Positions 12,216 to 35,415 of a stretch of DNA of 64,000 nucleotides are shown piece by piece. The notes under the pieces are model-generated. The model searched no databases and was not told the origin of the DNA. It saw only the letters and a program-made list of their open reading frames with translations. Both the position numbers and the translations under genes were made by a program. How positions within the stretch are numbered: the first letter of the stretch is position 1; every line of letters begins with the position of its first letter. Where the stretch lies: contig NW_019091361.1 in assembly GCF_001949145.1 (NCBI RefSeq), positions 248,001 to 312,000 of the forward strand, given 5' to 3'. The DNA comes from Acanthaster planci (lineage: Eukaryota).

Positions 12216-12506
12216 ATGTGATTGTGTCCTCAAGGTGAACATTTCCTGATTCCCATGCAGTTGGATTCTTGATGGTAAGATAAGCTATCAATTCCCGGCA
12301 TATTATGTCATAACGAATAAAAGTGGTTGTCATGACCAAATAAAAAAATGCTTGGAGTGATTATTTTCCTTGACTCATCAAGAGTGATTCGCCAGATCCA
12401 TGTCTCGTTTTATACGTTTGATTGTTGTGATCAACTTACAACATTGTGAAACCAAGTTCCATTGCTTGCACAATAAAACCTGTAATTGGGGGAGCAAGAC
12501 GGCCGT

Positions 12507-12638
12507 TTCACAATATTGCGCCACCACGAGTTGGCAACATTTTGGCCAATCACAATGCGCGTTTGGAAATGGTCGACAAATTTCGCACGTTATGATTGGT
12601 CAGCATGTTGCAAACTCTTGGTGGCGCACTATTGTGAA
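12507..12638. mobile_element. Palindromic MITE-like/foldback element (~130 bp)
   Basis: Left arm ttcacaatattgcgccaccacgagttggcaacat matches the reverse complement of the right arm (ttcacaatagtgcgccaccaagagtttgcaacat) at 31/34; inner ccaatca/tgattgg also pair. Confidence 0.65.
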
Positions 12639-14008: not shown

Positions 14009-14102
14009 ATGGCCATAAACGCTCAAAGATTACGGGAATTGCCAGGGAATGACAGATGTGCTGACTGCCAAGACTGCGATTGTCAAGAATGCGGTTTTCC
14101 AG
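14009..14102 (+). CDS. ADAP-like exon 1 (ArfGAP N-terminus MAINAQRLRELPGNDRCADCQDCDCQECGFP)
   Basis: Kozak-like accATGG; donor CAG|gtaggc. Confidence 0.85.
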
Positions 14103-17100
14103 GTAGGCCTGAGAAGTATACCGCAAGAAAAATGTCATTAGTATGATCAGGCATTGTTCTGATCGTTGAGCAAAATGACAGGTCTATTCAAACCTGTCTA
14201 CAACTTTCAGATCAGTGTTATCAATTTTTAAGGACCACTTTTTTATTTTGTGTATACTTTTTTATATCAATACCCCACTACAACTGTCCCGATTTTTTTC
14301 AATTTACTTAATAGACAAACCAAAAATGAAAGAACTAGACCCAACTCATTGCTTGGAAAAAAATAGAAGTTAGAAATGGTTTTTGAGTAGTGTGGTTGTC
14401 AATTGACTGAGTGGCTTGGGTGTATAAAATATTGAAAAGTATTATTCACAAAGCTAATGAACCCAGTCTTGTGCACAAACTAATACAGTGTGAAACTTGT
14501 CTGAAAACCCAGAGTTTTTCTAAGTAAATGCTTCGGAATTTTCTTAGCTAAATATTATTTTTTAGGACATGTTATCTCTTTCTGATGGCTGTTATCACGG
14601 CATGTTAAGGGAAAATCAATGTCATCTTTACTGTATATGAACGCTTTATCTGTGGTGTTATGTTTGAGAAGTTGTTTGTAGTAAAATATTTAACGTTCAT
14701 GGCATTTCATTGTTCTGGCTGAAACTTACACTGTTGATGACAAGTTTTGATTAGAGCAAAGTCACATTTTGGGGGAAACACACCCTAATTGTCGTCTTTA
14801 CCATATTTACAGATTGACTTAACACATACAGTGAAAAAAATGCAAAGCATTGAAGTTAACAGGTTAAACACCATTTGTGACCGGCTCTAGAAAAATGGGT
14901 TATGAGTTTTTGATATATGGCTGGATTCTGTACATTAAAAGCTACAATTTGATATATGAATGACCCATGTAGTGCACTGCGTTCCTGAGATACATGTATA
15001 TAGACATTTGTATATCCACATTTTCGGATTCAATAAAAGCACTTTTCGAGAAAACACTCACAGAGAGTAGTGCTTGGAAACACAATGCTATGTAGGATTT
15101 TCTACTGGATAATCAATTTTTCATCTTTATTATCAGTATACATTTTTGTAATCACAAATTCTGAATATATAAATTTTATAGAAGCTATTAAGGAAAAAAA
15201 CACAAAATCATGTTTTTGAAGAAATTTTGCCCTCACCAAATAGAACAGACCATTACCTGTTTTGGCATTGCATGACCTATTTCCCTTTTTTGCAGAGCGG
15301 GTCACATTTACATGTACATCATCATTGAGGTACAATATATGTTCTCAGTTCTGTTATACAATTTGCAAAGATCCAACAGGTTTGCAACTTGGGGCACCTT
15401 GAGTTGAATGCTTTACTCTTCCATGGCCACATGATCGAACTCCATATTATTCACCAATTCTGTTACTCAAACCAGAGTACACACACTGTCATGTTGTCCT
15501 GTCTTTATCTACATAGGTAATGATGATGATGTAGATCCTTCATATTCAACATTGGGTTTTAATTTCTATCTGTAGATCCTGTATGGGCTTGTGAGGAGTT
15601 AGGCATTCTAGTATGTGAAGAATGTATGGATCTCCACTGTGTGCTTAGCAATGCCACCTTCAAATCCATCATTTGCCAAGACTGGACTGAAGAGAGCTAT
15701 AAGGTAAATGGAGCATAAGCCAATCAGGAATCACTTGTTAAAATATGTCCCTTTTATTTTGGCATTATTTTTAGGGTGGACTGTTGCTCTTTTAAAGAGA
15801 ATTCTCGGTCATTCACAATTTCACAGAGGTTTATGTAGAGATTTTCATTTCATATCCCTCACAGTGTTGAAAATAAATGTGTAAAGTTTTATTGTGAAAT
15901 TTACTAGCCTGGGCAAGGTGAAAACATATATCATTAATTTCATTATTTGATTTGTTTAAATTGCACTAATTTTTTAAACTTTACATTTACTTTGTTGTAA
16001 TCTCAGAGCACAGAGAAAGGCAAAGCGTACTTAAATATTGTTGTGTTTTGTTAAAACTTCACAAAAAAAGACATGAGAATTATATGGACCAACACTTTCA
16101 TCAGATGCAAGGGACCCAGAAAAACCAACTTGTTGATTGCAGTTCTCCTGAACTGTTGATAACGAGAAAGATACAAAAAATAAGTTTTTTATATAGTTTA
16201 CAGTGTATGCTGTTATGAAACAAATGAAAATTCAAGGAGGAGCACCTACGAGATGAAGTTTAAAGAAGACTGGACTTGTCATTTGAAAATCACCCCCCTC
16301 CCGTTTTGTAGAGTCTTGTGCCATTCAAATTTAGACATACGTGTACATACTCCGTGTATCTTTGTAACTGAGTAAAAGGAACTCGCTAAATTATTTTAAC
16401 AGTCCTGAATCTGTCAAACTTAAAAAGTTTCCAAATTAGAAATCTTAGGAAACTAGCCATTTTAGCCGATTGTTCATCCAGGATGGCACAAGAATTTTCA
16501 TTTTAAAAAGTAAGCTTGCCAACCACAGCACAAACAACCAAAAGCCTAACAAGGAAGTGTGGATGAATTGCCTTGTGGAATTTTCCTTGAATCAGCAACA
16601 AGTGGAACGAGAGTCGGTTTGGCTTGGAATGGTTTGGGAATTGCCCAGGATATCACAGACTCATCACTGACACAATATGAAAGGGTCCAATTTCAAGTTG
16701 TAACTGTCACCATTATTAAAATCTGATTTCCATGAAGAAGCTTAATGTAGTCTCAACAAGGTGACCAAATGATTGTGGTTCTGGATGAAACCGCATCTTT
16801 CCTCTTGCTACAAAGAGAGAACCTGTTTAAAGCCAGCTGCAATACGGGCCAACTTGTCCAGGACATTGAGGGTCCCCTGACCAGTGGTTTGGGATGTAGC
16901 CTTGAATAGTACTTTTCTTCAAATTGTGAAGGGGGGCAGAATTTAAGGGGAGACTGGAGACTTGATTGAGGGTATCCAACATCACTGGTCAGTTAGCACC
17001 ATTTTAAGCTGCCTCTTTTGTTGTTAATAGTTGTTTGAAAACATAATGCTCACAGTATTCTTGAGGCCACTTTGTCATGCATGTGTCCGTCAGTAATCAT

Positions 17101-20100
17101 CAGGCAGTTTGAAAGGTTCTCTGCTTTTCTTAACTTGAAAATGTTGAATTGTCCTAATACACACTGTCCCACGTAAGCTGAAAAATTTAACACGCATGGA
17201 GAGTTACCCATCAAACGTTCATTTTTTGCCGTCTCTGTTAAAAGTAATGGGGTAAATGCCTGTATTACATGTATATGCCATGCCTATGAACAGGTTTAGG
17301 CAAGCATTCAAAAAATGGGTTTCAAAGCTGGATTTATAATTGGAAAACCTTTCCAAAATGTTGAAGTTCATTTATTGCACACATACATGTACATGTATGT
17401 GTAAAACTAAATGTGATGTCTGAAATGATCTATATGGTTCTACAAACGCCATCCAGACACTTACATGTAGCTCCATAACTAAGTTGACTAAGTAGATCTT
17501 GCCACTAAACACATTTTAAGAAAAGAACAAAGATTTTTCTTGTCTGCCTACATAATGTGTACACACAATGGTAGTGCGCTAACCTTACATACATGTACTT
17601 AGTGTGGACTTGTAAACAAAAGATGTCCACATGATGCAGGAAAGGAAGACGTTCTGTGGACTTACACATGTCCACAGGACGTTTCCCCTTCTCTGAAAAT
17701 GAAGTTTAGAGTCATTTTGGGGTAGGGGTCATCTGTCGTAAAAGAACGAGTCAAGGAAACTTTGTACAAAAGCCAGCTGAAAATCGTGTTCTTAGTTCAA
17801 GAAAAATGAGTATTTTCACTGAGTTTTCTTAACTGCACAAAATGAAAGGAATGTCCACTCAAGGTATGTTAGGTAAGTGTGTGTGGGTGGCATACATAGT
17901 GTGGACCTCTGCACAAAAGAGGTCCACATAATGTTGGGTGCGCCGTGGCGTAGTGGGGACGTGTGTGGGTGTGTGTGTGTGAAGGTTTTGGGGTTTTTTT
18001 CAAGCATGGTACCCCATGGTAGACACCAGTGTAAACAATACAATGCAAGCACAGCTATTGATAGATATTGGCCTCTGCACTCTAGTCAAAACTCTATAGG
18101 GCTGGTTCCCCCATAATAATGGATGCACATACAGTGAAACATGCACAACCAAGTTGAAGTGGCCTCAAGCATTTCCACACTATTCAATATGTGTATGACT
18201 CTAAGGGTATTGACGGTGAGAAAAAATACATGTATCATGGAGGAAGTAAGACAAGCAGTGGTGCATGCCAGTGATGTATACTGTACAGGGTTCAACTACA
18301 AAACTGAACAGACCAACAGTCAATGAAGTACAGACTACTGATATGCTGAGCACTATACCGAAAATTGGCATACAAACAACACTTATGACACACTTTGCTG
18401 TGGAAGGACACCATGTTTGTTGATGTTTGAAGCACGCTATACTGTAGGTCATGTGACTTAGCTGGCGCAATCGGTGTATTGGTATGTCGTAAAAAACAAA
18501 CAAAACATGTGTACAATACTAACAAAACGGCTAACCAGTTGCACATGTGCCAGGAGTTGAAATAATTTACATAAACTAATGGCAGGCCATTAACTCCAAT
18601 GTCACAGGCTTACAAACATAGATTATTATAAACATGGATTCTAACATAACTACAAAAACTATAACATTTAAAATTGAATAATTACATGTACATTCATAAA
18701 TAGCTTAGACAATTACACTACATACATTTCTATTGGTCGAAACCAGTCGAAACACGTCACATGACTGTGTATGTAACATTTGGTAATGCCCGCTGCAATT
18801 TAATAATGCTGCTCTGTGAAAATGCGTAGGTACCTATACGAAACAGCTTAGTCCATTTCTATTGGTCAAAAGTTGGTATGTCCCGTGGCATGTCACATGT
18901 GTGCCAGTTCCGTAAAGGGGATTCTGATGTACTACTTGCTCCAGGAATATACTATAAAATGGACGGGGGTGTTTGGGAAAATAAAATAAAAATTTTTGAA
19001 CAAAGTCCTCGGAAATTTATTCTACATGTACATGTATATTGTCTTCTTTTGACACTCTGACTAAAATCTGTGGTTCGGGCATTAGTCACGTCCAAATGAG
19101 TCGGTCTTAAACACACATTTAAGACCGGCCAAGAACATAATTATTCCCTTAATGCAAAATAATCCACGTCCCTTGTTGAAAAGTTACATGATATCACACG
19201 TTGCACATACTGCCAGTATCATTTAAAAAAGGGACAATTTAGGACACCACAAATGACAAAGAAAACCCTCAAAGAATGCACAAGACTTGCCCTTCAACAG
19301 AGAAAGTCACATAAATGGAAAAAGGGCAGTTGTGCAACAATGCACACTTTTCTGTTCCTTTTGCCAAACTTGGCCTAAACTAAACAAGCCCACATGTACA
19401 TGTATTTCTGATGGAGGTAGAATTCTGGAGCAAACTGTAATCACCTTGAGCAGAAGCACCCCTTCATCAGTTGAAAAGAGCCATGCTGGTCCTCAGTGTT
19501 CGTTTGTTGGTAGCGATGTGTAATCATTCATGAACCAGCGAAGTGTACATGTAGTTCCTACCAAAGGAGCCTAGGTCCAGCTTAGGGCCATAATGAAGGC
19601 CAGCCCTGGAGCTGCATTCGCCCCCCCGAAACCCTATAAATGTCAAATTTGTAACTTATTTTTCTCTTGTGCTTGAGGATTAGGGTTGAACATGGCTTTG
19701 TGGTTTAAATAACTACCAATGTGTAGTTATGATTATGACATGGTTGATAGGAGTCAGCTCTTATCCTGATAAAAATGATTTAACATTACCAATATTTTGT
19801 AAATATCCTCAGCTACATATTTCCAAATCAACTGATGGATTGCAAGTGTCTTTAAATTCCTCTAATTGAATTTGGTTGGTTTGAATTATTTTTGTTTTGC
19901 CCTTTTGTAGGCAGGCACCTTTATACATGTATAATTGTGTCTCTTTTAGATTTTTCTGTGTGCATGGAGCTGCCACTTGCCATCAGTCTCAATATTTTGT
20001 TTATTCTTCTTTCCCGTCTTACATGTATGTATCTTATATCTTATATCTGAGAATTTTGAGTTACATGTATTTTATTTGGATTTTCATGCAGAAAATGGCA

Positions 20101-23100
20101 TCAACAAACAACAATGCCTCCAAGGAAATCTATGAGAAACATCTCTGTCCTGCTTACAAGAAACCTACACGATGCTTCAATATGTAAGATATATCAGCAA
20201 TTCCTGTTTCTTCCTTGTATTGCTGAAATTCAAAAATTATTCCCTTCCATCTACCGAAACTTGTGTTTTGACCACTGTTTCTGAAGTTTGTAAAGATGAA
20301 AAATTTTGTAAAAGTAGATAGAACTGATTCTATCAATCAATACATACCACCGTAAAAAGGTCTCGGGTTGTACATTTGAATTTTCACCTTTTTGTGTCCA
20401 TCAGTATTGACTTCATCAGAACTGAAAGAAGAAAGTTTTCAAGAACAGTTTTGAATGTTCCAGTTCCATATTCCAAGAGCACATGCCCAAATGAATGCAT
20501 CCAAGGTCATTCAGGTGCACTAGTATGCACACATTTGCACAGAGAGTCTGCCCCATCAGTGCAGCCACACACTGACTCGTACACATACTTTGTTCTTGTC
20601 CTTTCCCCTTTAGAATAAAGAATGGCTCAAGTGCACTTTATTTCATTGAAAAGCAGCACTAACACGGTTAAGTTCTCCTGCAAATTATACATTGCATTTC
20701 ATTAGTTAAAGCAGAGACACTTCCTGACTACTATTGTGCTCTTCTTTGGTGTCCTTTGAGATACACAGTGTGTGATTTCATTCAGCTGATTGTGCTTTAA
20801 CTAACAAGGAAAAGAATTTGTTTTTGTGGCCATTTTGTCATCAAACCATTTTAGTCACAAAGTCAAAGAAAACGGATGCAAAGTCAGCGCAACAAAAACG
20901 AACTGGTCCAATGTCGCACAGCCCGGGCTGACACAACAGTGTGCCTGTCCGTGCGAACAATCTGTTATTTGCTTCCTGTTCTTTGCCCTACATAGATTCC
21001 CCTCTCCCTGTCCTCTCTTCCAGATCAGGGTCTTTGTTGATAATCCAGGATTGTTAAAAGTACACAAAACCTTCAGCAGAAGTCGTCAGGTCATATCAAG
21101 TTCTTCATTACGTGCTTAAGCTTGTTAGAGGTCACTTGCACACAGTACATGCATGTACGCATTTATGTGTAAATCGTTTTAAACCACAGTGTCAGACTAA
21201 TTCTTGTTTCCTCATATTTGGTTTATCAGTCCATAAAACCAACATTAGTACAAGTACACCTAAATTTAACTTAATGTGTAGAACAAAGTTCACATTGCTT
21301 TAATGTCACATTTAGGCCTATACTCCCGGGAACCATATTTCTTTTGCTTAAAGTAGCAATTTATATTTACTTTATATGGGTTTGGCGTTACACCTAAAGG
21401 GTTGCCATGATCATCCATTCCCCATTTGGGGGAGGGGGCTATTTTTGTGAGTGCGAAGACATCCTAGAGCAGGAAATCTTGCAATAACGAGAATTAGTTT
21501 TTCCCACTTTCAACCATCGCCTGTCCCACTAGAACCCATGCAGTACTGTTCCTTTCTCTTATATGTACCTCCTGTCCCACAAGAACCCATGCAACACTGT
21601 TCCCCTCATTGCTACCTCCTGTCCCACTAGAACCATGCAGCCCTAGGCCTGTTCCTTTACCCTACCTCCTGTCCCACCAGAACTCAGCTCTCCTGTTCCA
21701 CTAGAACCTATAGCACTTACTTCCTGTCCCACCAGAACTTATGCAGCAGTGTTTCTTTCCCCTACCCCCTGTCCCACCAGAACCCATGCAGCACTATGCC
21801 TTTCCCCTACCTCCTGTCCCACCAGAACCCATGCAGCACTATGCCTTTCCCCTACCTCCTGTACCACTGAAACCCAGTAATGTTCCTTTTCCCTGCCCAC
21901 AGTGAAGTATATCTTATGCATGATTGATAAAACCCACCGTTCACAGTTTTGTGGGCCCTCCAATCAGCAAACTGTGACCTTTGCATTCATAGCAGTGAGC
22001 TATGAGCTCAAACCAACTGCCCTTTCACTGATATTTGGCGTAATCTACAAGCACAAGCCCACTGAACAGGAAACGATGAAGCTGTGTCTGACTTACAGCT
22101 TCCTGTTCTCACATGTAGATTTCCTTGCATCACCACATTGTTTGAAAATTGTGTGAAAATTGTTGCCTGTTAAAAACGTTTGGGATCGAATTAACATGAT
22201 GCCATCAAAACTGGATGATCTAAGTCGCATTTTCTGCTGTTTGCATATATTTTCCTTGTTTAATGTGCATTTTGTAGCCAGCAGATGTATTCAGTGTTTT
22301 TAAAACAATGTTTTTGTTAGTTTTTTAGTTAAAGGTGACAGACAATTGTTCACCCTGAAGAGATTGTGAACAATTTGTCATCTGATGGATCCTTTTATCG
22401 AATTGATTCACCTTTTGGTATACAGTTCTGTACAGATGAGAATGTCATCAGTGACTATTTTAACCATATCCTCTGTACATAGGAAGTGAAGGGTTAGACA
22501 CTTAGCTTAAAAAAAATTACAGTCGAACACAGGTAGGCCTAAAGCACGACTGATGCCAGCCTATCAGTGGTAACTAATTAAAAGGGGACCAATTAGGAAC
22601 AGAGCTCTTCAAATGTACCGGGTATTTCAAATGTGAACAAATGTTTGTGTGTACATGCACCTGTAGCTTGACTTTCAATCTGATAAGCATCGTCCTACCT
22701 CCATGGTATTATTTAGCTTGCTGGTCGCATGTGCATGTACTGGCAGTAGGTCGTCCTGTAAGTGGTCGTGTAAATCATCAATGATGGGAAGTGGAATATT
22801 GTAGGTGGCAGTTTAGAAAACACCAAATCAGAAAAGAATCAAAACCAAAGCAAACAAACACCTCAAGTCCTACGGGATATGTGTATGTCATGCGTGACCT
22901 ATTATCACTCCAAAGACCACACATTACAAGAAAACAAAATCTGCAAGGCTGATCTTCGGTAACTGCTACAATAAAACAGTGTTGTCTCACACTAGCTACG
23001 CCCTATCCTAGATGCAATACCATCTAACCTCGTAAGAACACATGCTATGCTGGGTGTGATCAGCTAGATTATATTTTGACTCCTTACAAACCTGATCTGT

Positions 23101-26100
23101 TGAAGGAATTTTTAACATACATTTATGTGTGTACACGCTAATAATTCTATCAGTGTGTTTAGTGGACATGAAAAGCTGTTTGAAGAGAGTTTTTCCATAT
23201 TGAATTAAATGAATGGAACTCAGACTTCAGTGACTGAAAAGGTGCATTACAGTGTAGATTCAAATACATGTACATGTAGTTTTACCCTTATTTAGACATT
23301 ATCATCTATTGTACATGTACATGTTTAATTGTGCATCAAAAGTACATGTAAATGCACCTGCAGTGCACATACATGTACATTTCAAATGTACACTGACTGT
23401 TGTGAGCAGACTATAGGCAACAATCAACTCAACTACATGTAAGAAATGTCTTCATGTACATAGTACATTTCATCAGTGGGTATACATGTACATGTAATAC
23501 ATGCATGACATGTAGAGTCAAGTGTGTGATGTGTACAGGTGACTCTAAATTTGTCCCTTGATTGTAACACAACCTTAGCCAATTATCTTCTACCAGCTAC
23601 AGTTTTTGCTTTTACCAGTTTTAAACATGGATTTGACATATCTGGGATAGGGAGTTAAATTTGTAACTCAAAACCAAAGTTCTTTTGCAAAAGTCTGCTA
23701 TTTTAGCATTAATGTTTTATAATTTTTGTGGAGTCGGTTGTAGCATTCAGCATTGCAACATCATTAGACTCAGACCAATTAAAACAGAAACTGCCCAAAA
23801 GGACTTTTTTCTGAGACCATCATCAGTCCAACACAAGTGAAATTGTGAGTCTGGTCACAACGGGGGATGAACATTGGAATAAGTTTTGTTTTATCACAGG
23901 TCGTTTGAACAACTTTGACGTGACTTATGAAGACTGGATGATTTTGTGATAGGGCTTATTGGAGAATGTGTGCCACTCTGTTGCATTGAAATTTATAGAC
24001 CGTTGGGTTTTCAGGACATATAGGATTTTTAGTTTCTGGTTTTAATTACTTACATTCAGAGAATTCAGAAAGCAGTGGATCACGGCCAAGTACTTGCGTA
24101 AGGAGTTTGTATCTGCTGAGAACCAACCCAAGTACATGCAGGGTAAGAAGTCAGGTTACCTGTGGAAGCTGGGTCGGGACAGTCAAGTCTTCCAGCGACG
24201 ATGGTTTGTCTTGGATCCAAGTGGGAAAGGCACACTGCGATACTACACTGATGCAAATGTAATTCTCCAGTCTTTGCTCTTGTTGATTTCAATTTATCTT
24301 TAAAAACTACTAAGGTTGTCAGATTAACAATCAAAATTCATTGAGTGGAAAACAGTACTACACTGTATATTAAAGTTGGTACTGCGTCCCATTTTTCAAA
24401 CATTTTCACAGCTGTTTGTTTCATGTTATCAGGAGCAGTCACTTCGAGGGGAGATATCCCTGTTCAAGATGAATATGGTTCTTGCGTCACCCGAAAAGAT
24501 TGGTCATCCAAACGGACTGCAGATAGTCTACCCAGACAACAAGGGGCAAAATACTCGCATGATCTATCTCTATGCTGAAATGGCCAAGGTAATTCTCTTT
24601 AAGTGCATAGCAAGTGTCATATGCGTACTGTCAGAATAACGTCACATAACATAATTGGCTCTCAGTAAACCTTTGTTCATTACTTGTACCCGGAATAGAT
24701 GGGGAAATTAGAACAAAGTAATGTGACCTAGATTGCTGTCATTAACTATGGCAGTAATGAGAGATTTGAGTAATACTATTCTTGTGGTTCAGTGCTTCTA
24801 GCTGATTCTAACATGTACTGACCTGTAACAAGGTACCGTTTATATTGAGTCAGATCAAAACTGACAATGTGGTCTGACACTTGGAATTGTGTCAAGTGGG
24901 GAAAAAGGCATGCTATGTCCAAGTATTTGGAAAGGGATTCAGAAATGGAATTGAATCGAACCCATCTCTAAGTCCTGGAAATACATGTGTAATTGTTGTT
25001 TTAATTTGAAAACATCTTTCCAACTATCGCATATTTTACTAATTCAAAGTAGCAAGTCCACATAGCCTTAAAACTTGGAGTTTATTACCTTGTAGTGGCA
25101 CAAAAAACGATATATAAGTCAGCACACTTTAAGATTCAACTATAACACTTAGTATTATATGAATGCATACAGCTTGTAAGTTTATTCTTCTCCCTCCAAT
25201 GCATCAGTTTTCAAAGACTTTGTACAAATTTGGCTAAGACTGGCCAACAAAATGTTGGCCACTACTGGACAGCTATGCACATATAGGAACAAACTGCACT
25301 ATTTCATCATAGGGAGTGATCATGAGAATGAGATATGGTAAAATACACTTTTGTATAAAGGATTCAAATAAAACAGCAAATCTTATCAACAGCTTGACCA
25401 TTTATTTCAAAAATAACTCCAGAAGAAAGAATTTGAGAAGGGCAATAACTGCACATGAACGTAATCGGGCACACAGCCTAATACAAGCAACTGCCCAAGA
25501 ATTAAATTTACTGTTGTAGGGAGATCATAGCAAGCACCAACAATACATGAATATTCAATTTCCTATACTTCAGTGTACAAAGTTATGAAGGATGCAGATT
25601 ACCAGCAAAAAATTGCAGTTGTGATCATATGATACCTGACAGATACCAGGCATGCCAGAAAGCAGTAATTGGACAGATGTTATAACCTGGGCAGTTTAAA
25701 CTCCTTCTGTGTCCTAAGTTCCTGGTCTTAATGACTCATTTTATTTGGCTGAACCCATGAACCCAATGTTTAGTAGGTCAAGACTGAGATTGTCTATGAT
25801 TCATTGAAACTTCCCTTCGTGGATAGTAGCTTTTAGTGATTATGTAAAATTTACATTTCCGTGTGGTCCAATAATGTTTCCTTAGTTGACTGCTTGTGTT
25901 GCTACCAGAGTTCTTATGTCAAAGGGCACTATACTCGTCAGGCTCAGCAGAAAATTGTTGATAGGCCTTTAAAATGATGGTTACTGTACATCTCATGAAC
26001 GTTACCCTGACCTTGCCATGGCAAGTTTGATGTTGAGAAGGGGGTACAGTTGGAAACCTCCTGTCTTGCGTATGTGTCAAATGTATCAAATTTTTTTTGT

Positions 26101-29100
26101 TTTAAAGAACTATTGATATTCGTATGTACTATCTAATTAATATTCATATTTCCCACCAGGATATGGTGGAATGGTTCCAGGCAGTGCGATGTCTTAAGTT
26201 TTTCATTCGGAAAAGCACAAGTGTTGATAAAGATGAGGATATTGTGAGTATACATTGCAGTGTACAGTTGCACGTTGATTACTTTCATTGATTAAATGCA
26301 TAAAAAATAAATTTATTTAAAAAAAAATAAGTTGCAAATTCCAGTTGAATTTCCTCTACTTTAACTGTTTGATTCTTTCTTGGCATTTTGGTAGATTTCT
26401 CGTATTCTGAAGTATGACATCCTTAAGGAGGGTTACCTGCTCAAGACTGGAGCCAAAGGCAAGGAGGCTTTTCGTAAACGCTGGATTGTTCTGGACAAGA
26501 TGTGCCTCATGTACTTCAAAGAACCACTGGTATGTTGAGACCGTGTTGAGATATTTTTTGGTGGTGTAGCGGTTTTTTGTTTGAGTTTTGTCCTAAGCCC
26601 AAACCCTGTTGTTATTCTTTGGATTTTACTCGTTTCTGTCTGCACTACTTTTTAGAATAAACATCAACCGTGAGGTCCATAATCTTTGGCAGCAAGCGTA
26701 AACTCAGGTCTTCATTTTTTGTCATGTACATAAAAATCATGTGACCCTTGTTATAGCCGAAAAAAGAATGGCTGTGTACATCAAAAGAGGTAATAAACAA
26801 TTGGTATCAATGCTGTTTGTCTCTGGTTGTATAATGCTATTCAAAACTTTGACCGTTGATGTCATGGAATTCTCAAGCACCATATTGCGGCAGGTTGAAA
26901 ATTGTCAAATGCATTTTCAACTGATGTCTATAGTTTGCTGTAATCACTTGGTAGACATGATGACATTCAAGTAAACAAGTTTGAAACTGATGATATCACC
27001 ATACCAGAAGTTACAGTAAAAAGATGTTTAGTATTTCAAAAATCACAAAAATCACTTCTGAAAGATATGATCTTGAAGCTCCATTAAGAGATAGAATAAG
27101 CTTTGGCATCAATTGTCTGAGGTGTTCAGCTGGTCTTATGGTGAATGGGACCCTCCGATAAAAATATGCCAATAGTCTTTTTTTCAAAACTTCAAGACAA
27201 ATTTGCTGTATACACACATTCACTTGATGAGAGTGCAGTATTCCACCATTGTCATGCATCTTCAAACTGGGTCAAAATTATCATGGTGTAACCAAGTCAG
27301 TGTGTTGTCCCGTGGTTAAAAGTATGAATGTGGACCTACAAGGTGCTAATCAATTCTCACTGTGGCAACATTATTTTTTTTCATCCAAATGAGGTCATGT
27401 TTCCTTTTGCTCTCCAAGCTTCATAACCAATGCTGTTGTTGGTCCTTCATTGTTGACCACTACCCAAACCTCTACGTTTGTCAAATACCAAACACTAATT
27501 ATGTCTTGTTTTTAATTGTTTTTGTCTTTTGTGTGTATTTTGGTGGGGAGTTAATGTTTCATATATGTATTACAGTCATTTGCAAAAGTTTAGGACCACC
27601 CATAGAAAATGCATTAACCTGAAGGAAAACCAAACTTAAACCAATCGCAACTTATGTTTATTTTAATGTGTAACCTTGTTGAACATTTTTGACTACATTT
27701 CCATGATTTGACATGTTAACAGTCTAATATTCAGTGTTTCCCCCCTTATTTCTAATCACTTAGACTGGCTTTTTTTTTCACAAGCTGCCTTACAGACAAA
27801 ATGTCATACAAGACCTGCCTTTGCAAAAAATTTCATTCAAATGGGTATATAGCACTACACTGATGTTATGCAACACTGTACAATCATGTTAAGTAATCAG
27901 TCAATGAGACAATGTAATGCAGGCCCAGTGACAGAAATACCAATAAAATTCCAGGTGGTGTTAAACTTTCGCAAATGACTGTACTATTTCATTGGTTTTT
28001 ATAAATGAATCCTCTAAATTTATGAAGTGTTTCCTTGACAATTAGTGAAAATACTTGCTGTCTGGTGCAAACCATGAAGAATAGTCTCATTTAGAGACCT
28101 TTTGTGTACCACCTAAAGCTCAATCATTGCACCACAAAGAGTTTAACATTTGGACCTTCCATTGGCTGATAATATACTGAGGAACATCTATTTGTTTTCA
28201 GAAAACTGTTTAGAGGATTTTGCTTGTTGTCCCCCCCCCGCTGGAATAAACCAGACTTTTTGGGGCTGTTTTCCTGAGTTTGGTGTTTCTGTTGTGGGTA
28301 CATGTATAATATCACTTCATTTTGGTGGGGTTTTTTTGTTTTAGGATGCTAATCCCAAAGGTACAATTCCTATGAAGGGAGGTTATTCCCTCATCCTGAG
28401 TGGACAGCTGGACCCAGAGAATCGAGGCTTTCACTTTTACCTGAAGACTCCAGGCAGAATCTACCATTTCATTGCAGATAGTGACCATGAACGTAAAGCA
28501 TGGTTCAATGCCATTCATGCCGCCTGCAACAGGGCTAGTGGAGGTAAGGACTGGGGGCTTTGGAAGGGGCTGAGAGAGCTGAGGTTGAAAATGGAAAGGA
28601 ATGGTTTTTAGTCTTTGATGAATAAAGCACAGATTGCATGATTATGGTACTCAGAAATTAAGGTTGTCTTGAAGCGTAGCATCCCATAATGCCTCATTAT
28701 TGACAATGTGAGTTTCAAACATGATGTTCAAACATTTCCTTACATTTAAAAACTTAACGAAAATATATTTTCTTTTTCCCACAGTGTGTTCCAAGAACAA
28801 AGGTCCTACTCTAGCAGGTGGAAAATGGGTAACAGCCTCGTCACCTCCAACACAAGTAGAATCATCACATAAGACGAAGGAGAACACTTCCAGCCCTGAA
28901 GGTTCAGCATCATCAACATCCAGAGAAAGTGTCCTTGATATCACCAAGACAGCTAAGGCATCCCCTGGTCCTGGAGGAGAAGACAGCTCAGATGTAGACG
29001 ATAACTTTGTGGCTCTCTCTGCCCCCTTTGCTGGTGTCAGGCCAAGCACTAAGCCACGCCCCCAACACACCCTTGCTGATTATCATGGGCGGGGTCATGG

Positions 29101-32100
29101 GCGTGGTGGGGGTGGCGCACATGGACGTTACCACCACGCAGAGCTCAAGCACCAGCCAGCTGTAGAGGTTGCTGAAGGTGTCACTGAAGAAGACCCCTAT
29201 ATTGAGTTTACCACCGAAGAAGATGAAACCCTTGAACCTGAAGAGGACACAGAAGACAGCTCTGACGATGAGGAAGAATCGCCATACATTGAACTGGATG
29301 GAGAGAAAGTAGTCATGATGCAGAAGGTAGATATGATTGGTATGACTACCAAGCAGCTCTCAACTCACCTCAAGGTGCCACGTAAGGCATTACCACAGTC
29401 ATCTAGCTGTACCATGTGTGTCAGCTTAGTGTGGGATACACTACCCAACCTGCCAGACTCTGAGGGCTATGTCTTGGTGTCACCCATCGTCAGTTGCTGT
29501 AGTATGCCAAGGGATGTAGCTTTGCTGCAGCCATTTCAACTGGAGATCCAGCATAGTGCCATATTGAAGGATGTAGCAAACTGCAAGCCTATGATTTGGC
29601 ATCTCCAGAAAGACCCAGGTAACGTACAGTACATTTACATCATTTGTTAAGAGCAATTTGGAATATACAATGCTGTAAACTCTGGCACATTTGGAAGAGG
29701 TTTTAGGGCAAGTAATTTTCTAGATACTGAAGAGTTTTGGTTGCAAGGTGAAACATGATATGTCTGCTTTTCTCTCACCCATAAAGACCACAGTTGAATT
29801 TTGTAAGTAACCTTAATTAACTTTCAGGTAATATTTCGTAAGCCCTGTATAAAGTTAAAGTCACTATTAATGTCAGTGAACCAGCTTCTAAAGTGGTATC
29901 TTTTGCCCTCTTTTCCTGCAACACTCAGACCCCCAGGAGAAGGAGAAGGGAAACATTTTTGCTATTATAATGTAGGCAGGAATAAACCTGAGGAAACCTT
30001 TAATAAACTTTTGTTTAAAGATTAATATTCTTAGCAATGTTGCCCCAATTTCCTCATTTCTATTCATTTTGTTACAACTTTTGCCAATAAATTGTGGCAG
30101 AAGTTGAAGGAAAGTATTGTTATTTTCTGTGAATGCAGGCAAGTTCTTCAAGTGGGAGAAGGCTGACCAAGGTAGTTTCAACATGACCTGTAGAGCCTTT
30201 TACCGCAACTTCCTCATTGAGACTACAAGGACTGGTTGCTTTGCCATTATGGTTCCGTCAGAGAGTATTTCCGGCAAGCTAATTCGTTGTATGACCTACA
30301 TCTCCTCAGAACAAGGAGACGATCATTTGGTAGCCAGGGTGTACTTCTTTGGGGATAATGGCAGTGACGATGTTCTCCATGTAAGGATTAAAAAAAACAT
30401 TAATTTGGTCAATGTAAACTAAAATGAAATGTTTACCTTAATTTTCTGAAGAAGATTCTACATGTACAGAAGCATGATGTAAGAAGCCTTCTGTGTGCTA
30501 ATTAAGAAAAATGGAGAAGAAATATTCCAATTTTAAAGCATACAGACCTGAATTATTGGTGCATGTATTATGATGTTATGTCACACTTAATCTCCCAACT
30601 TGAAATACTGAAATATTTGTGATTAGGGTATATCGGCACTGTTCTGTGCACCTTCCAAGCATAAAGTGTGCAAAATGGACATAAGTAGTATTATACTTCT
30701 AGTCCAACTAAAGATGTGCTCATATGTGCTAACTTCTACCATGGTATTTGTGTTCATCACTAAAGATACTAGTGCTGTCAAGTTGATCTATCACTTTGGT
30801 TGCAGGAGATCCAACGACGTGAGAACACTTACCGTGGTCGACTCTGTGACATCTCCTGCTCTTTTTTCTTGGCAAACACTGAGGATAACATTTTGATGAA
30901 CATGTCCGAGCTGGAAGGAATGGAGTTATACTTTGGAGGCAATGAGCCAATGGTATTGTGTCCAACATTCTTTTGTATAAAGCTTATCCCATAGCACCAA
31001 ATAAGTTCCTATTTGGTAATCACGTCTTGTTTATGGTGGCCATTATCGTGTACTAGATGCAGACGTTTTCTCCTATCTCATCAGTAGGAATACATTGAAT
31101 TAAAAACAGAAAGGCAATTTTGAATATGCTACATTCATTATCAGTGTTGTAAATGAGTCACTAACTTTGGTGACTGAAGTCAAGTCGACTCCTTTTCACA
31201 TTGTGATTCGAGTCAAGTCATTAGGTCAACAAGACAAATCAAGTCATTTTGTGTAGTCAAGTCGAGTCAAGTACCTAGCTGGAGTCAATTGAGTCACAAA
31301 TTTCTGAACAAAATACAATAACAGTACAACTACATGTAAGTCATTTTTTGGTAATTGTTATTTTCATTTAAATATACTGAACATAAATTAAGGTGACAGG
31401 TATCTAGCCAACTACAATTTGTTTCTAATTTTTTTTTTGAGGCTTGAGTCTTATAAGCTTGTACTGGAGTCGAGTCTCCATGAGAGATTTGAGTCGAGTT
31501 TGGTCATTTGGTTGCATAGACTCAAATCGAGTCATTTACCCATCAAGTCTGAAGACGCGTCACCAAAACTGTGACTTGAGTCGGACTCAAGTCAAGTCAT
31601 CAACTTGAGTCATTACAGTTTTCTTCATTATAGACATTTTAAGATACATTTCTGTATCACACTATAGTTTGGTAATGTACAGACACTGACAGACAATCTT
31701 TTTCCTACAAACTCCAATTTTTGTCCCCTAAATTAACTAGTCTTTGCTATTAAAACGTTTATTGGCATGATATACGGTTCACACTTTGGCTGCTACATCC
31801 TTGTGGTGATGAATTTCATGTTTTCTTATATTTCAGACAATTACATCTGAGGAAGTTTGGCAAAAACAACTGGTATGTTACATGGCAGAGATCATTAAGA
31901 AGAATCCAACAGGCCAATGCACAATCAATGTGTGGCAGGAGAATACAGATGCAGAGAAGTACCCCATTCAGATGAATCTACAATTCTCTAATGAGGTAAG
32001 CATGAACTAACATGGAAGTTGTTGCCATAGGCTGGTAACTCTGGTATCTGCTTTGATATAGATTAATGCGCATGGTTTTTTTTTACCAAAGGCTTGTTCA

Positions 32101-34927
32101 TATGTCATGCGTATAATAATGGCCATGCATTGCAAGTTTATTGAAGAGATGTCAAATTTTATGCACTACAATTGTGATTGTACAGAATGTCCATTCTTCT
32201 TCAACAACAAAAAATTGGGCATTCTTTCTTAATTTTGAAGACCTAATTTTTTCGCTTGCCAAATAGAATCCTTGATTAAATTGGAGGTTGTATACTCTTC
32301 TTTTCAGCTTTTCAAAAGTCTAAATTTCCCTTTTTTTTACCATGCTGATTTAAGCAGTCCACAAACATTGTATAATAAAACTAAAGATTGCATTTTTAAA
32401 AAAATGAGGCTTCAGTAACAAAGCTGGACTTTTATAAAATTCATCTTAAACTAGTAAAAAAGTTTACAGTACTGATCATGGCATAACAACCCAGTTGTGA
32501 AGATACCTTATTTTTCTTCAAATTACTGATAAAAGAAAACAAGGCGTTCACAATCGGTATCCTTGTACGGTGACTTGTGGAGATCACGGCCCAAAAAGCA
32601 ATCTCGTCATGGTAGAGCGTAAGTCAATTGCCACATCCAACCTTGGTTCATAGTGTAACGCTGTGCTGCTGTTTTAAGCATAGATAGTTCAATCATTAAT
32701 AACTAATGTCTGCTTCACTGTGCTCAAGGTGGCTGGCTGGAAGATTAATTGATGTTGTCACTTGTCATCAATGTTTGTATGTAGCTCTTCAATGTCAATT
32801 TTATTAGGTAAAAATGTTTTGCTCACATAAAGAGTAATGACCCAATTTTGGTAAACAAAATAACATAAACAATGGAATGGGCTTTCCAAGCTGTATTTTT
32901 CTGTGACAAAGTTGAAGTAATCACAATGGGCTATCAGGATTCCTTGGAGATTAATAAATGTAGTGCATGTGTGTCTTGGGCCATCACTGCAACACAGACT
33001 AGACAGCACAAGTTTCACAAGTTAGCATCAGAATTGTGCACACAAAGCAATGAGGCAGTAACTCACTTATAAATGGGTTTCACATTCCCTCCTGACAAAG
33101 TGATTGATAAATCAGCATCCAGCTTAGCTCTTATTACTAAAACCTCCCTTGTGTATGTGTTATCAGTTGTGCATAGAGAGTGACCAGTGTGCCTCCAGGC
33201 TCTGGATCCAGGATTGGCAAATGGAATTTTTTTCCTAAAACAATGGTCCAAGTATTTTCATCCATGAAAAAACTCCAATCACCCCTTCAAAGGTGGTGAC
33301 ATTGTTTGAAAAGTGATACCTCTTTCAATTTCTAAAAAGAACAGAAAAATGGCAATGACCCAGGGAGGGGAAGGGGCAACTTGCAATGGCTGCGGGTCCC
33401 ACTGAATGACCTAGAGAGGGGAGAGGAGGGGGTAACTTGCAATGGCTGCGGATCCCACTGAATGACCCAGGGAGGGGAGGGGGTACTTGCAATGGCTGCA
33501 GATCCCACTGAATGACCCAGGGAGGGGAGGGGACAACTTGCAATGGCTGCGGGTCCCACTGAATAACCCAGGGAGGGGAGGGGGTACTTGCAATGGCTGC
33601 GGATCCCACTGAATGACCCAGGGAGGGGAGGGGGTACTTGCAATTTCCCCCAGATCCCACTGAATATTCCAGTGATGAGAACATCCCAGCTATAATTGGC
33701 CACAAAAACCACTTGCCATAGTGTTACTATTTTACACTCCCTCTTGTCCATCACAGAGTCTGGGTTGACCAGTACCACTTAATGTCATCACTGACTGGTG
33801 TCAGAGTCATTTATATAGTGACGTGACAGCCATCAGTTTTTGTAGCTTGATAGATACAGTTATCATAGTTTTACTGACAGTGATCCTGACCCTAGTATGA
33901 TATGTAGTATAACTGAAATTCTGAGTACAATCTTCTTGGCTTTGTTTTGGATGTTTTGTGAATATTTGTTGAAGTTCAAGACCGGTCATCTTGAATTTGT
34001 TTGGGCAACGCTGTGAATGTTCATTGAAGTTCATGTTGGCAGTGCTTCAAGTGTCACTGTTATGTGAAATGGTTGCATGAGCTACTGTAAGCACCAGTAC
34101 ATCAAGCTATGCCGACCCGAGTCCACCTGTCCACCTCAAACTATGCTGACCCTTTCCTCTTGTGGCAACACCAGCTGTGCATGATACTCCTGTTGACCAA
34201 ATGGCCTACTTTTAGCTTGAGATATAATTTTTCATCTTCACATTAAATTTCAGCTGAGGGACACAAAGACAAGGGTGCAGTGTATGGATTGGATGTGTTT
34301 AGTGTGCTGACGCTACATGTACAGTCTTTACAGAATTCTTCCTGTTTATGTCTTTCGTACCACTTGAACCTTTGGCACAATTTTCGTTTCATGAGTCTGT
34401 GTGTATTTTTTCAGGAAAAGTACCCGGTGATTGCCCCTGTGCCTTACCTCCATACACATTTGCCACAGCCAACAACTGTTCCTGTCAGATGCCATCAGGC
34501 AGTGTCAAGAGTTTCCTCTGCCCCCTTAGCTCAGAGACCAAGCCCCTCCCTCATTGCTGACAGACCCAGGGATACCCCTCATGCCCGCTCTGTGCCAAGT
34601 CGAAGCCGTGCTGCTGATGCTGTTGCCAGCACTTGTTTGCAGGACAACATGCTGCCATTTGCCGTCAAACGAGATCTGTTTTTACTATTGGACACCAAGG
34701 TAGCAACAGGTAACGATTGGCGTATGTTGGCCAGCCAGCTTGGTCTAGATGCTATGATCTACTGCTTTGACATGCAAATCAACCCTACCATGGAAGTACT
34801 GAAAGCCTTTGAAACTATGAATCGTCCTCTGAATGAGCTTGAGGAGCATTTGAGGCTTATTGGTAGAGACGATGCAGCTGACATTATCAAGACTTACCTA
34901 GAGAAAACCAGAAAGGAGAAAAAATAA
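14009..34927 (+). CDS. ADAP1: ADAP/centaurin-alpha-like ArfGAP-PH-PH protein fused to UNC5-type ZU5-UPA-Death domain, 993 aa; exons 14009-14102, 15576-15703, 20092-20183, 24060-24258, 24433-24588, 26160-26243, 26395-26529, 28345-28543, 28785-29618, 30139-30380, 30806-30952, 31837-31995, 34415-34927
   Basis: All 12 introns are GT-AG with compatible phases; CDS is 2982 nt with no internal stop. Motifs: PGNDRCADC...CQEC-x16-CEEC, QWITAKYLRKEF, GYLWKLGRD...QRRWFVL, IGHPNGLQI, EGYLLKTG...FRKRW, LKTPGRIYHF, SPIVSC...LEIQHSA, RVYFFGD, GNDWRMLASQLG. Confidence 0.88.
14876..15306. mobile_element. Non-autonomous DNA transposon (MITE) with TGTGAC...GTCACA terminal inverted repeats, in intron 1
   Basis: Left tgtgaccggctctagaaaaatggg versus right reverse complement tgtgacccgctctgcaaaaaaggg; AT-rich non-coding interior. 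Confidence 0.7.
15576..15703 (+). CDS. ADAP-like exon 2 (DPVWACEELGILVCEECMDLHCVLSNATFKSIICQDWTEESYK)
   Basis: tgtag|AT ... AAG|gtaaat; second half of the ArfGAP zinc finger; missing from the ORF track. Confidence 0.88.
20092..20183 (+). CDS. ADAP-like exon 3 (KMASTNNNASKEIYEKHLCPAYKKP)
   Basis: gcag|AAA ... AT|gtaaga; matches the ArfGAP M..GN..A...YE..P..Y.KP pattern. Confidence 0.88.
21520..21900. repeat. Degenerate ~48-bp minisatellite (cccctacctcctgtcccaccagaacccatgcagcactatgccttt)
   Basis: Core cctgtcccac(c/t)agaacccatgca recurs about 8 times in intron 3. Confidence 0.85.
24060..24258 (+). CDS. ADAP-like exon 4 (end of ArfGAP, start of PH1)
   Basis: ttcag|A ... AAT|gtaatt; EFRKQWITAKYLRKEF...GYLWKLGRDSQVFQRRWFVL. 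Confidence 0.92.
24433..24588 (+). CDS. ADAP-like exon 5 (PH1)
   Basis: atcag|GAG ... AAG|gtaatt; PEKIGHPNGLQIVY...TRMIYLYAE. Confidence 0.92.
26160..26243 (+). CDS. ADAP-like exon 6 (PH1 C-terminal helix DMVEWFQAVRC)
   Basis: caccag|GAT ... ATT|gtgagt. Confidence 0.9.
26395..26529 (+). CDS. ADAP-like exon 7 (PH2: KEGYLLKTGAKGKEAFRKRWIVLDKMCLMYFKEPL)
   Basis: gtag|ATT ... CTG|gtatgt. Confidence 0.92.
28345..28543 (+). CDS. ADAP-like exon 8 (PH2 C-terminal half)
   Basis: ttttag|GAT ... G|gtaagg; DANPKGTI...LKTPGRIYHFIADSDHERKAWFNAI. Confidence 0.92.
28785..29618 (+). CDS. Exon 9: Ser/acidic linker and ZU5 domain
   Basis: cccacag|TG ... G|gtaacg, phase 1/1; LKVPRKALP...LVSPIVSC...LLQPFQLEIQHSA is the ZU5 pattern. 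Confidence 0.88.
30139..30380 (+). CDS. Exon 10: ZU5 C-terminus and start of UPA domain
   Basis: gcag|GC ... CAT|gtaagg; TRTGCFAI...ARVYFFGD. Confidence 0.85.
30806..30952 (+). CDS. Exon 11: UPA domain (EIQRRENTYRGRLCD...)
   Basis: tgcag|GAG ... ATG|gtattg. Confidence 0.85.
31142..31618. repeat. Element with many gagtc/gactc (agtcgagtc) subrepeats at both ends, probable non-autonomous DNA transposon
   Basis: Clusters of gagtcaagtc/gagtcgagtc at 31150-31300 and 31445-31612 around an AT-rich core. Confidence 0.5.
31837..31995 (+). CDS. Exon 12: UPA domain (TITSEEVWQKQLVCY...LQFSNE)
   Basis: tttcag|ACA ... GAG|gtaagc, phase 0/0, open frame; missing from the ORF track. Confidence 0.85.
33350..33665. 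repeat. ~50-bp G-rich minisatellite, ~6 copies (caatggctgcggatcccactgaatgacccagggaggggagggggtacttg)
   Basis: Units start at about 33384, 33440, 33490, 33541, 33591 and 33641 in intron 12. Confidence 0.92.
34415..34927 (+). CDS. Exon 13: Pro-rich linker and UNC5-like death domain (34649-34900)
   Basis: ttttcag|GAA; LPFAVKRDLFLLLD...GNDWRMLASQLGLD...NPTMEVL...LEEHLRLIGRDDAADII; TAA. Confidence 0.92.
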   Translation, partial: EKYPVIAPVPYLHTHLPQPTTVPVRCHQAVSRVSSAPLAQRPSPSLIADRPRDTPHARSVPSRSRAADAVASTCLQDNMLPFAVKRDLFLLLDTKVATGNDWRMLASQLGLDAMIYCFDMQINPTMEVLKAFETMNRPLNELEEHLRLIGRDDAADIIKTYLEKTRKEKK

Positions 34928-35309
34928 AACAATAAAAATCCTATTTCTAAATGGCAACAGCCTAATCCGGTTGAAGAATTGCAGAAGTACATTAGATGTA
35001 ATGAGTCACTCCAGCTATTGCATAAGGTTACGTTGGCCATTGCATTTTGGAAGACCAATCTTTTCACCTGTAATCTTAGCTGCTAAATATTTCTAATTGA
35101 AATTTCTTTAAAAAATAGGAAATTGTGAAATCCACTGAAAATTATTCTAGAGGGGCATAGCCACCATCACCAAATAAATTTGTTATTCAAAGGCCTTTAT
35201 GCTCAGATGTAACCTATTTGTATTACTGTCTGCGTGGGCTTAAAATTCTTGTTAAAGCTCCTATTCATAAATACGCAGGACAGTTTTTCTGTTCCTATTG
35301 GTCGAAGTG

Positions 35310-35415
35310 CATCGTAGAGGGGATATAGTGGGGGAGGGGGCATTGTAGAGGGAAGATGGTGGGGGAGGGGCCATTGTATGGTGGGGGAGGGTATATTGTA
35401 GAGGAGAGATGGTAG
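35310..35415 (+). repeat. G-rich ~30-bp tandem repeat in 3' UTR (cattgtagagggaagatggtgggggagggg)
   Basis: 3-4 degenerate copies with G3-G5 runs. Confidence 0.7.

What the first reader, a model, noticed from the sequence alone, without database searches (positions are those of the whole stretch)
14009..34927. ADAP (ArfGAP-PH-PH) fused to an UNC5-type ZU5-UPA-death domain: a candidate phosphoinositide-recruited death/immune adaptor
Seen: 13 in-phase exons make one 993-aa ORF. A full ADAP/centaurin-alpha module is followed by a ~170-aa linker, ZU5, UPA and a death domain with GNDWRMLA, and there is no signal peptide or TM segment. Known: ADAP proteins end soon after PH2 and are recruited by PIP3. 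ZU5-UPA-DD is the cytoplasmic signalling supramodule of UNC5 netrin dependence receptors and is related to the modules in ankyrin, PIDD and UNC5CL. I know of no described protein combining the two. Inference: the UNC5 ectodomain and TM helix have been replaced by a lipid sensor, so PI3K activity rather than netrin could control membrane recruitment of a death-fold signalling module.
Basis: partly seen in the sequence, partly recalled or inferred. Interest (0 to 1): 0.9.

Follow-up and report, generated by a model that had tools for sequence, protein, structure and literature searches.

The report
Echinoderm lipid-sensor death-domain fusion protein
This is a real, spliced starfish gene, shared by brittle stars, sea urchins and sea cucumbers, that joins a likely membrane-lipid (PIP3) sensor with a likely inactive enzyme domain to a death-domain signalling module, so it would let PI3-kinase activity gather immune or cell-death signalling at membranes, although that function is untested.

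Summary
Thirteen exons give a 993-aa protein identical to an uncharacterised Acanthaster planci RefSeq protein (LOC110987868). RNA reads join exon 8 to exon 9. The ArfGAP-PH-PH-ZU5-UPA-death-domain layout occurs in 12 named species from four echinoderm classes, and the modules form one clade. UPA misses its Pfam model but is supported by a custom profile and a fold match to UNC5B.

The ArfGAP arginine finger is lost (0 of 14). The ZU5 self-cleavage site is dead (glycine in 15 of 15). The three UNC5B latch residues I could map are absent (0 of 15). The module lies outside the netrin-receptor clade, so "UNC5 with a swapped ectodomain" is not shown. The PIP3-type PH residues are invariant.

Best reading (0.45): a non-catalytic, non-cleaving adaptor, likely recruited by PIP3, whose tethered death domain would be switched by clustering at membranes. 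The main rival is a trafficking scaffold (0.3). Ten literature searches found no description. This is a new, old and conserved combination of known domains, but invertebrates shuffle this cassette often.

The parts
14009..34927 (+). Whole 13-exon coding span, 993 aa (A. planci LOC110987868 X1)
14021..24117 (+). ArfGAP-like domain, aa 5-124 (exons 1-4): zinc finger C25/C28/C45/C48 kept, three extra conserved cysteines C17/C20/C23
   Evidence: Pfam 58.2 bits; motif tally
15638..15640 (+). Codon 53 (Cys) at the arginine-finger position, aligned to human ADAP1 Arg49
24145..26198 (+). PH1, about aa 134-236 (exons 4-6); K141, R152 and Y166 invariant; R152 aligns to human R149
26422..28527 (+). PH2, aa 261-357 (exons 7-8); K268, R280 and Y291 invariant
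28544..28784 (+). Intron 8 (241 nt, phase 1), the join between the ADAP half and the ZU5 half
   Evidence: 26 junction reads and one contig, no intronic depth
28785..29302 (+). Low-complexity, acidic linker, about aa 363-535, with Y501 and Y530; Y530 (29285-29287) is its only invariant residue
29303..30266 (+). ZU5 domain, about aa 536-683 (exons 9-10); G673 (30234-30236) sits at the self-cleavage nucleophile position
   Evidence: Pfam 29.6 bits; model and fold match
30276..31989 (+). UPA domain, about aa 687-821 (exons 10-12)
   Evidence: custom profile against shuffles; fold match; no Pfam UPA hit
32536..32618 (+). 83-nt cassette exon of RefSeq isoform X2; it shifts the frame and removes the death domain
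   Evidence: located from the RefSeq protein, AG/GT edges; its joints were not among the rows shown
34415..34639 (+). Linker of about 75 aa between UPA and the death domain, predicted disordered
   Evidence: pLDDT under 50 over model residues 299-369
34640..34897 (+). Death domain, about aa 899-984 (exon 13)
   Evidence: Pfam 42.4 bits; Z 13.6, rmsd 1.7 over 86 residues to the UNC5H2 death domain
35173..35192 (+). AATAAA and a likely 3' end
   Evidence: 6 molecules end at 35192 in 1 of 3 raw-read runs, weak

Best explanation
The gene encodes one transcribed ADAP-ZU5-UPA-death-domain protein conserved in four echinoderm classes, which likely works as a non-catalytic adaptor: its two PH domains would bind PIP3 or PI(3,4)P2 and would cluster a permanently tethered death domain at membranes, where it would likely nucleate a death-fold signalling complex. 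Shown: single transcript, domain content, one origin of the module among the rows sampled, loss of the arginine finger, loss of the self-cleavage site, loss of three UNC5B latch residues, invariant basic PH residues. Inferred: lipid binding; loss of GAP activity, with the domain possibly still binding Arf-GTP; an exposed death domain controlled by local concentration instead of cleavage or a UNC5B-type latch; phosphorylation of the acidic-context tyrosines; an IRAK/MyD88-type NF-kB output as somewhat likelier than caspase killing; death-domain-less splice forms as dampers.
For: PH1 and PH2 are the best conserved parts: 34 of 120 and 29 of 117 positions invariant in 13 of 13 rows, against 10 of 148 in ZU5 and 12 of 140 in UPA. 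R152 aligns to human R149, the residue changed in the membrane-binding mutant. ADAP1 binds PIP3 with high affinity (PMC2542466 passage). The arginine of CX2CX16CX2CX4R is replaced in 14 of 14 (Cys 1, Tyr 1, Gln 3, Glu 9), whereas a canonical ADAP in locus L002 keeps it; Arg-to-Gln abolishes ADAP2 GAP activity and leaves it at the cell periphery (PMC4570769 passage). Self-cleavage motif xF[STC]: 0 of 15 fusion rows, 22 of 23 other non-UNC5 modules. UNC5B V619/E666/R913 equivalents: 17, 18 and 18 of 18 in the UNC5 clade, 0 of 15 in the fusion. The model puts the death domain behind a 71-residue low-confidence linker and fits closed UNC5B poorly as a whole (rmsd 8.9 over 350 residues). A review cites UNC5CL as an activator of IRAK signalling (title in the reference list of PMC10084454).
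Against: No experiment exists, and no partner is identified. The death domain is only 31-39% identical between starfish and urchins or sea cucumbers, below the PH domains at 44-52%. Annotated isoforms drop it in 6 of 12 named species. The same supradomain serves scaffolding in ankyrins and SH3BP4. Death-domain fold matches to UNC5H2, MyD88 and NF-kB p105 are nearly tied (Z 13.6, 12.7, 12.5) and do not name a pathway. Only three latch residues could be mapped, so a different closed interface is possible. Y530 lies at the edge of the ZU5 fold and may be structural.
Confidence: 0.45

Rival explanations
1. It is a PIP3-recruited trafficking or cytoskeletal scaffold. The dead ArfGAP acts as an Arf6-GTP effector, the ADAP half couples to a KIF13-type kinesin, and ZU5-UPA-DD binds cargo or cortex proteins as in ankyrins and SH3BP4, with no death or immune output.
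For: Human ADAP1 lists Kif13b as interactor, and GAP mutants that still bind ARF-GTP can act as effectors (PMC6724607 passages). [quoted passage not shown] Ankyrin-B is the second fold match (Z 20.3). The module is non-cleaving and the death domain is dropped in some isoforms.
Against: The module has one ZU5 and matches UNC5B best (Z 22.3; Foldseek E 2.9e-20 against 1.2e-9 for ankyrin-B). A death domain is present in at least one record of each of the four classes. The KIF13B-binding surface was not tested.
Confidence: 0.3
2. It is a PI3K-controlled decoy. PIP3 recruitment lets its death domain bind and sequester pro-death or pro-inflammatory adaptors, giving a survival signal.
For: PI3K signalling is broadly pro-survival (established knowledge). 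The module cannot release an active UPA-DD fragment by self-cleavage, which is how PIDD1 and NLRP1 become active (PMC9162469 passages).
Against: Nothing here gives the sign of the output. UNC5B signals without self-cleavage at this site (G678), so a dead site does not imply inactivity.
Confidence: 0.15
3. One reading: a UNC5 netrin receptor whose ectodomain and TM helix were replaced by ADAP, keeping the closed/open ZU5-DD switch under lipid control.
For: UNC5B is the best structural and profile match. Like UNC5 receptors it lacks the cleavage site (0 of 18 and 0 of 15). A sister position to the UNC5 clade is not rejected (p-AU 0.129).
Against: The UNC5 clade (17 rows) is one side of a starred branch without the fusion in three trees (100/99, 99/98, 100/99). 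The three mapped latch residues are absent in 15 of 15.
Confidence: 0.1

Closest known systems
ADAP1/ADAP2 (centaurin-alpha; human 374 and 381 aa)
   Same: ArfGAP-PH-PH over aa 10-359 (E 5e-64 to human ADAP1); zinc finger and basic PH residues kept; five intron positions and phases shared with a canonical ADAP in locus L002.
   Different: Arginine finger lost in 14 of 14; three extra cysteines; about 630 extra residues carrying ZU5-UPA-DD.
UNC5A-D netrin receptors (cytoplasmic ZU5-UPA-DD, PDB 3G5B)
   Same: Domain order and fold (Z 22.3, rmsd 8.9, 350 aligned); no self-cleavage site.
   Different: No Ig/TSP ectodomain or TM helix; outside the UNC5 clade; V619/E666/R913 equivalents absent.
UNC5CL (ZUD) and invertebrate 'UNC5C-like' proteins
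   Same: ZU5-UPA-DD without the netrin-binding ectodomain.
   Different: UNC5CL keeps a TM helix and self-cleaves; 22 of 23 sampled non-UNC5 modules keep xF[STC], the fusion 0 of 15.
PIDD1, ankyrins, NLRP1/CARD8
   Same: Cytosolic sensor or scaffold N-terminus on a ZU5-UPA-death-fold tail.
   Different: PIDD1 and ankyrins have two ZU5; PIDD1, NLRP1 and CARD8 self-cleave; none has an ArfGAP-PH-PH N-terminus.
SH3BP4 (MACC1 family recalled)
   Same: Cytosolic, membrane- and vesicle-associated protein with ZU5 and death domains.
   Different: SH3-based; no Pfam SH3 hit in this protein at E<=1.

Membership tests
ADAP (ArfGAP with dual PH) | ArfGAP domain followed by two PH domains, homologous to ADAP1 | tested here: met
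ADAP (ArfGAP with dual PH) | C4 zinc finger CX2CX16CX2C | tested here: met
   C25/C28/C45/C48; spacing is longer in some urchin and sea cucumber rows
ADAP (ArfGAP with dual PH) | Catalytic arginine (CX2CX4R) | tested here: not met
   0 of 14; motif definition in PMC2542466
ADAP (ArfGAP with dual PH) | Basic PH residues for PIP3 binding | tested here: met
   K141/R152/Y166 and K268/R280/Y291 invariant in 13 of 13; R152 = human R149; R280 = human R273 is recalled
ADAP (ArfGAP with dual PH) | Measured PIP3 binding and Arf6 GAP activity | not testable with these tools
   needs biochemistry
ADAP (ArfGAP with dual PH) | Protein ends after PH2 | tested here: not met
   transcript continues through exon 8/9
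UNC5 netrin receptors | Ig-Ig-TSP-TSP ectodomain and TM helix | tested here: not met
UNC5 netrin receptors | ZU5-UPA-DD supradomain | tested here: met
   (UPA by custom profile and fold, not by Pfam)
UNC5 netrin receptors | Descent from the UNC5 receptor lineage | tested here: inconclusive
   not nested in the clade; sister position not rejected; no outgroup
UNC5 netrin receptors | Latch residues V619, E666, R913 of the closed form | tested here: not met
   0 of 15 each; only these three were mapped
UNC5CL / PIDD-type self-cleaving modules | HF/S or SF/S self-cleavage site at the end of ZU5 | tested here: not met
   Gly at the nucleophile position in 15 of 15
UNC5CL / PIDD-type self-cleaving modules | N-terminal TM helix (UNC5CL) or LRRs plus a second ZU5 (PIDD1) | tested here: not met
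UNC5CL / PIDD-type self-cleaving modules | Tree placement with vertebrate UNC5CL | not tested

The most novel reading that the evidence does not exclude
Eleutherozoan echinoderms have a receptor-independent link from PI3K to death-fold signalling. A pseudo-ArfGAP with a second zinc site reads Arf-GTP, two PH domains read PIP3, and a tyrosine motif reads kinase activity. Their coincidence clusters an unlatched death domain that nucleates an IRAK- or caspase-recruiting complex, and conserved death-domain-less splice forms act as dominant-negative brakes.
Probability: 0.2. Interest if true: 0.8.

Novelty: new variant of a known kind. Interest (0 to 1): 0.55.

Why it matters
Studied ZU5-UPA-death-fold modules are switched by a receptor, by self-cleavage or by an intramolecular latch. 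This one has lost the cleavage site and the latch residues I could map, and is wired to a likely PIP3 sensor, so it offers a natural test of whether membrane recruitment alone can switch such a module. It has been kept in four echinoderm classes, which split roughly 480 million years ago (date recalled), so it is not a transient shuffling product. It is also a conserved natural pseudo-ArfGAP. Orthologues exist in tractable models (S. purpuratus LOC582857, Lytechinus, Patiria LOC119741456).

Tried and rejected
Assembly chimera or two adjacent genes: rejected by junction reads and orthologues in four classes. ADAP-only transcript ending at the AATAAA at 28621 in intron 8: no depth there in 4 of 4 runs. 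Full-length structure prediction from 4 sequences failed (pLDDT 29.9) and was not used. Complex prediction of ZU5-UPA with the death domain: no answer (score 0.00, alignment not used); it bears on nothing. ESM Atlas: no usable hit for the whole protein, which shows neither novelty nor absence; the first 362 residues gave ADAP clusters. No whole genome was held, so copy number, a canonical ADAP paralogue and synteny could not be tested. The run search listed no holder on record as RNA; raw RNA runs were laid instead. A conserved caspase-type DxxD site in the first linker: candidates in 6 of 8 orthologues, none in the two sea cucumbers, in an acid-rich stretch; not pursued. Metagenome scan: 2 of 215 pattern matches confirmed, both short ADAP-half fragments. 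Pfam scan of 56 upstream ORFs (1-14000): 0 hits. Earlier-findings look-ups by sequence, exact words and place gave nothing. Heinz 2012 and Liao 2014 were not held. Paper searches found no description: 2 papers held ZU5+ArfGAP+death domain (reviews by title; listing only), 0 of the 25 listed ADAP1/centaurin papers held ZU5 (47 matched), and 0 papers held any of six locus or accession ids. Supplementary tables are not covered by that search and may list these ids.
Full report
Observation. Thirteen exons on the + strand between 14009 and 34927, all with GT-AG introns, give a 2982-nt CDS and a 993-aa protein. It is letter for letter RefSeq XP_022106688.1, an 'uncharacterized protein' of Acanthaster planci. 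Pfam passes ArfGap (58.2 bits), PH (two stretches), ZU5 (29.6) and Death (42.4), but gives no UPA hit at E<=1. The highest 19-residue hydropathy is 1.46, inside ZU5, against 2.3-3.9 for the TM helices of sampled receptors.

One transcript. In raw RNA run X20, 26 reads from 20 start points cross the exon 8/9 joint, and a contig of X4 does too. X18 (67 reads laid) and X8 (1 contig) show no such joint. The two bins wholly inside intron 8 have zero depth in 4 of 4 runs. Seven other joints were seen in 4 of 4 runs. One 2321-nt contig carries exons 4, 5, 9 and 10 with a gap of 418 nt, the sum of exons 6-8. Joints 1/2, 2/3 and 6/7 were not displayed directly.

The UPA domain. A profile built from 28 UPA stretches of non-fusion proteins matches aa 687-815 at 29.5 bits, against a best of 8.0 in 1000 shuffles, and matches 15 of 15 fusion proteins. 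A model of aa 528-993 from a 59-row alignment has mean pLDDT 82.4. Its best match is the UNC5B cytoplasmic domain: Foldseek E 2.9e-20; Z 22.3, rmsd 8.9 over 350 residues. Ankyrin-B, NLRP1 and CARD8 follow. The alignment held UNC5-type rows, so the model leans towards that fold. The three domains are present, but the large rmsd means the closed packing was not reproduced. Residues 826-896 are low-confidence.

Range and origin. Records with the fused layout come from 12 named species in four classes: A. planci, Patiria miniata, Asterias rubens, A. amurensis; Amphiura filiformis; Diadema antillarum, D. setosum, Lytechinus pictus, L. variegatus, Strongylocentrotus purpuratus; Apostichopus japonicus, Holothuria leucospilota. 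The named Holothuria model stops after UPA; unnamed 887-aa members of its cluster carry the death domain. A search with the ADAP half among proteins of 580-1847 aa gave 11 hits of 813 candidates. Eight are named echinoderm proteins, two cluster with named echinoderm records, and one is unnamed but groups with Asterias. No crinoid, hemichordate or chordate appeared; the search is word-limited, so absence is not shown. In a tree of 49 of the 59 rows (four fragments and six near-duplicates left out), the ten fusion modules are one side of a 100/100 branch. They split into starfish plus brittle star (100/98) and urchins plus sea cucumbers (91/71), which matches the species tree as I recall it. The 17 UNC5-clade rows form a separate 100/99 branch. 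Trees of ZU5-UPA alone and of the death domain alone also keep the UNC5 clade separate. A tree with the fusion as sister to UNC5 is not rejected (p-AU 0.129). There was no outgroup and no identified echinoderm UNC5, so the donor is undecided. On the ADAP side, a canonical ADAP in locus L002 shares five intron positions and phases with exons 1-6 (exons of 134, 92, 193 and 147 nt against 128, 92, 199 and 156). From recall, the phase-1 intron 8 corresponds to the last intron of human ADAP1, which would make the fusion a splice capture; I could not test this.

The ArfGAP is likely dead. ArfGAPs need the arginine of CX2CX16CX2CX4R (PMC2542466 passages). Human ADAP1 Arg49 aligns to Cys53. The position is Cys, Tyr, Gln or Glu in 14 of 14 orthologues, while the canonical ADAP of L002 has Arg. 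The Arg-to-Gln change abolishes ADAP2 GAP activity (PMC4570769 passages). All 14 also carry three extra cysteines before the zinc finger, and His52 is invariant; a second zinc site is a guess. GAP mutants that still bind ARF-GTP can act as effectors (PMC6724607 passages).

The PH domains look intact. They hold 63 of the 99 invariant positions in 13 rows, including K141, R152, Y166, K268, R280 and Y291. R152 matches human R149, the membrane-binding mutant site (PMC8888757 passages). Lipid binding itself is inferred.

Both known switches are missing by sequence. PIDD1, CARD8 and NLRP1 cleave themselves at HF/S or SF/S (PMC3210808 passages), and UNC5CL is described as self-cleaving (PMC10084454 passage). 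The motif xF[STC] is present in 22 of 23 non-UNC5 modules, 0 of 18 UNC5-clade rows and 0 of 15 fusion rows; all 15 have glycine at the nucleophile position. UNC5B is held closed by ZU5-DD contacts (PMC8358048 and PMC9162469 passages). The three interface residues named in PMC3210808 (V619, E666, R913; mapped through) are kept in 17, 18 and 18 of 18 UNC5-clade rows and in 0 of 15 fusion rows. The 15 rows include near-duplicates, and I did not see the full interface list of Wang 2009 (title only), so another closed form remains possible.

Other features. Y530, in an acidic stretch just before ZU5, is the only invariant residue among 173 linker positions. It could be a phosphotyrosine docking site or part of the first ZU5 strand. 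RefSeq lists isoforms that stop after UPA in 6 of the 12 named species. In this window one arises from a cassette exon at 32536-32618 that shifts the frame, with the stop in the last exon. I did not see its joints among the rows shown (15 more rows were hidden), so it rests on RefSeq. Several of these tails are very basic (for example 11 Lys+Arg in 32 residues), which may be a by-product of the shifted frame.

Mechanism. The best reading (0.45) is a PIP3-recruited, non-catalytic, non-cleaving adaptor whose death domain would be switched by clustering at membranes. The output is inferred. Fold matches to UNC5H2, MyD88 and NF-kB p105 death domains are nearly tied, and the IRAK link comes from the title of a UNC5CL paper in a reference list. 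Rivals are a trafficking scaffold (0.3), a PI3K-controlled decoy (0.15) and a rewired UNC5 with its latch (0.1).

Novelty. Ten full-text searches found no description, and none of six locus or accession ids occurs in the library. Subscription papers and supplements are not covered. Passages of PMC8195603, PMC2575513 and PMC11087794 discuss death-domain shuffling in invertebrates, and the first two hold no mention of ArfGAP. The protein is already in public databases with these Pfam labels. The cassette is promiscuous: 4 of 65 scanned relatives join it to Rel homology domains, and unchecked notes of this scan report BH3, tetraspan, ankyrin, IRF and LRR partners. So this is a new variant of a known kind. 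It stands out by its age, single origin and two conserved catalytic losses. Interest 0.55.

Noticed in passing
window 43699-54626, - strand: Convergent tau-tubulin kinase gene: kinase exon at 53034-53342 (E 2e-37 to TTBK1/2; Pkinase) and long open frames at 45282-49292 and 43699-45345 that may be its low-complexity tail.
   Followed up: partly
proteins P0021, P0024, P0029, P0037: TM-less proteins joining Rel homology domains to ZU5-(UPA)-death domain, with an intact HF[ST] cleavage motif in 4 of 4; organisms not looked up. They could be self-cleaving NF-kB-like factors.
   Followed up: partly
protein P0061 (Patiria miniata LOC119741528): TM-less ZU5-UPA-DD protein with an HFC motif.
   Followed up: partly
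window about 25190-25715 and 27570-27985 (introns 5 and 7): Dispersed repeats that attract many 90-95% identical RNA reads from other copies; a joint on opposite strands at 27599/27949 suggests inverted ends.
   Followed up: no
window 35209-36900: Steady RNA depth beyond the first AATAAA; a longer 3' UTR of this gene or of the convergent kinase gene.
   Followed up: no
window 21520-21867, 33354-33666, 49442-50040, 61469-61738: Tandem repeats with periods of about 45, 50, 18 and 38; assembly gap of N at 42672-43064.
   Followed up: no
L001 68-292 and 1018-1140: Two exons 83-85% identical to the Amphiura orthologue, in a metagenome contig.
   Followed up: partly
literature, PMC8718600 (passage): A 'centaurin' transcript is listed as highly expressed in sea cucumber regeneration; whether it is this gene is unknown.
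   Followed up: no
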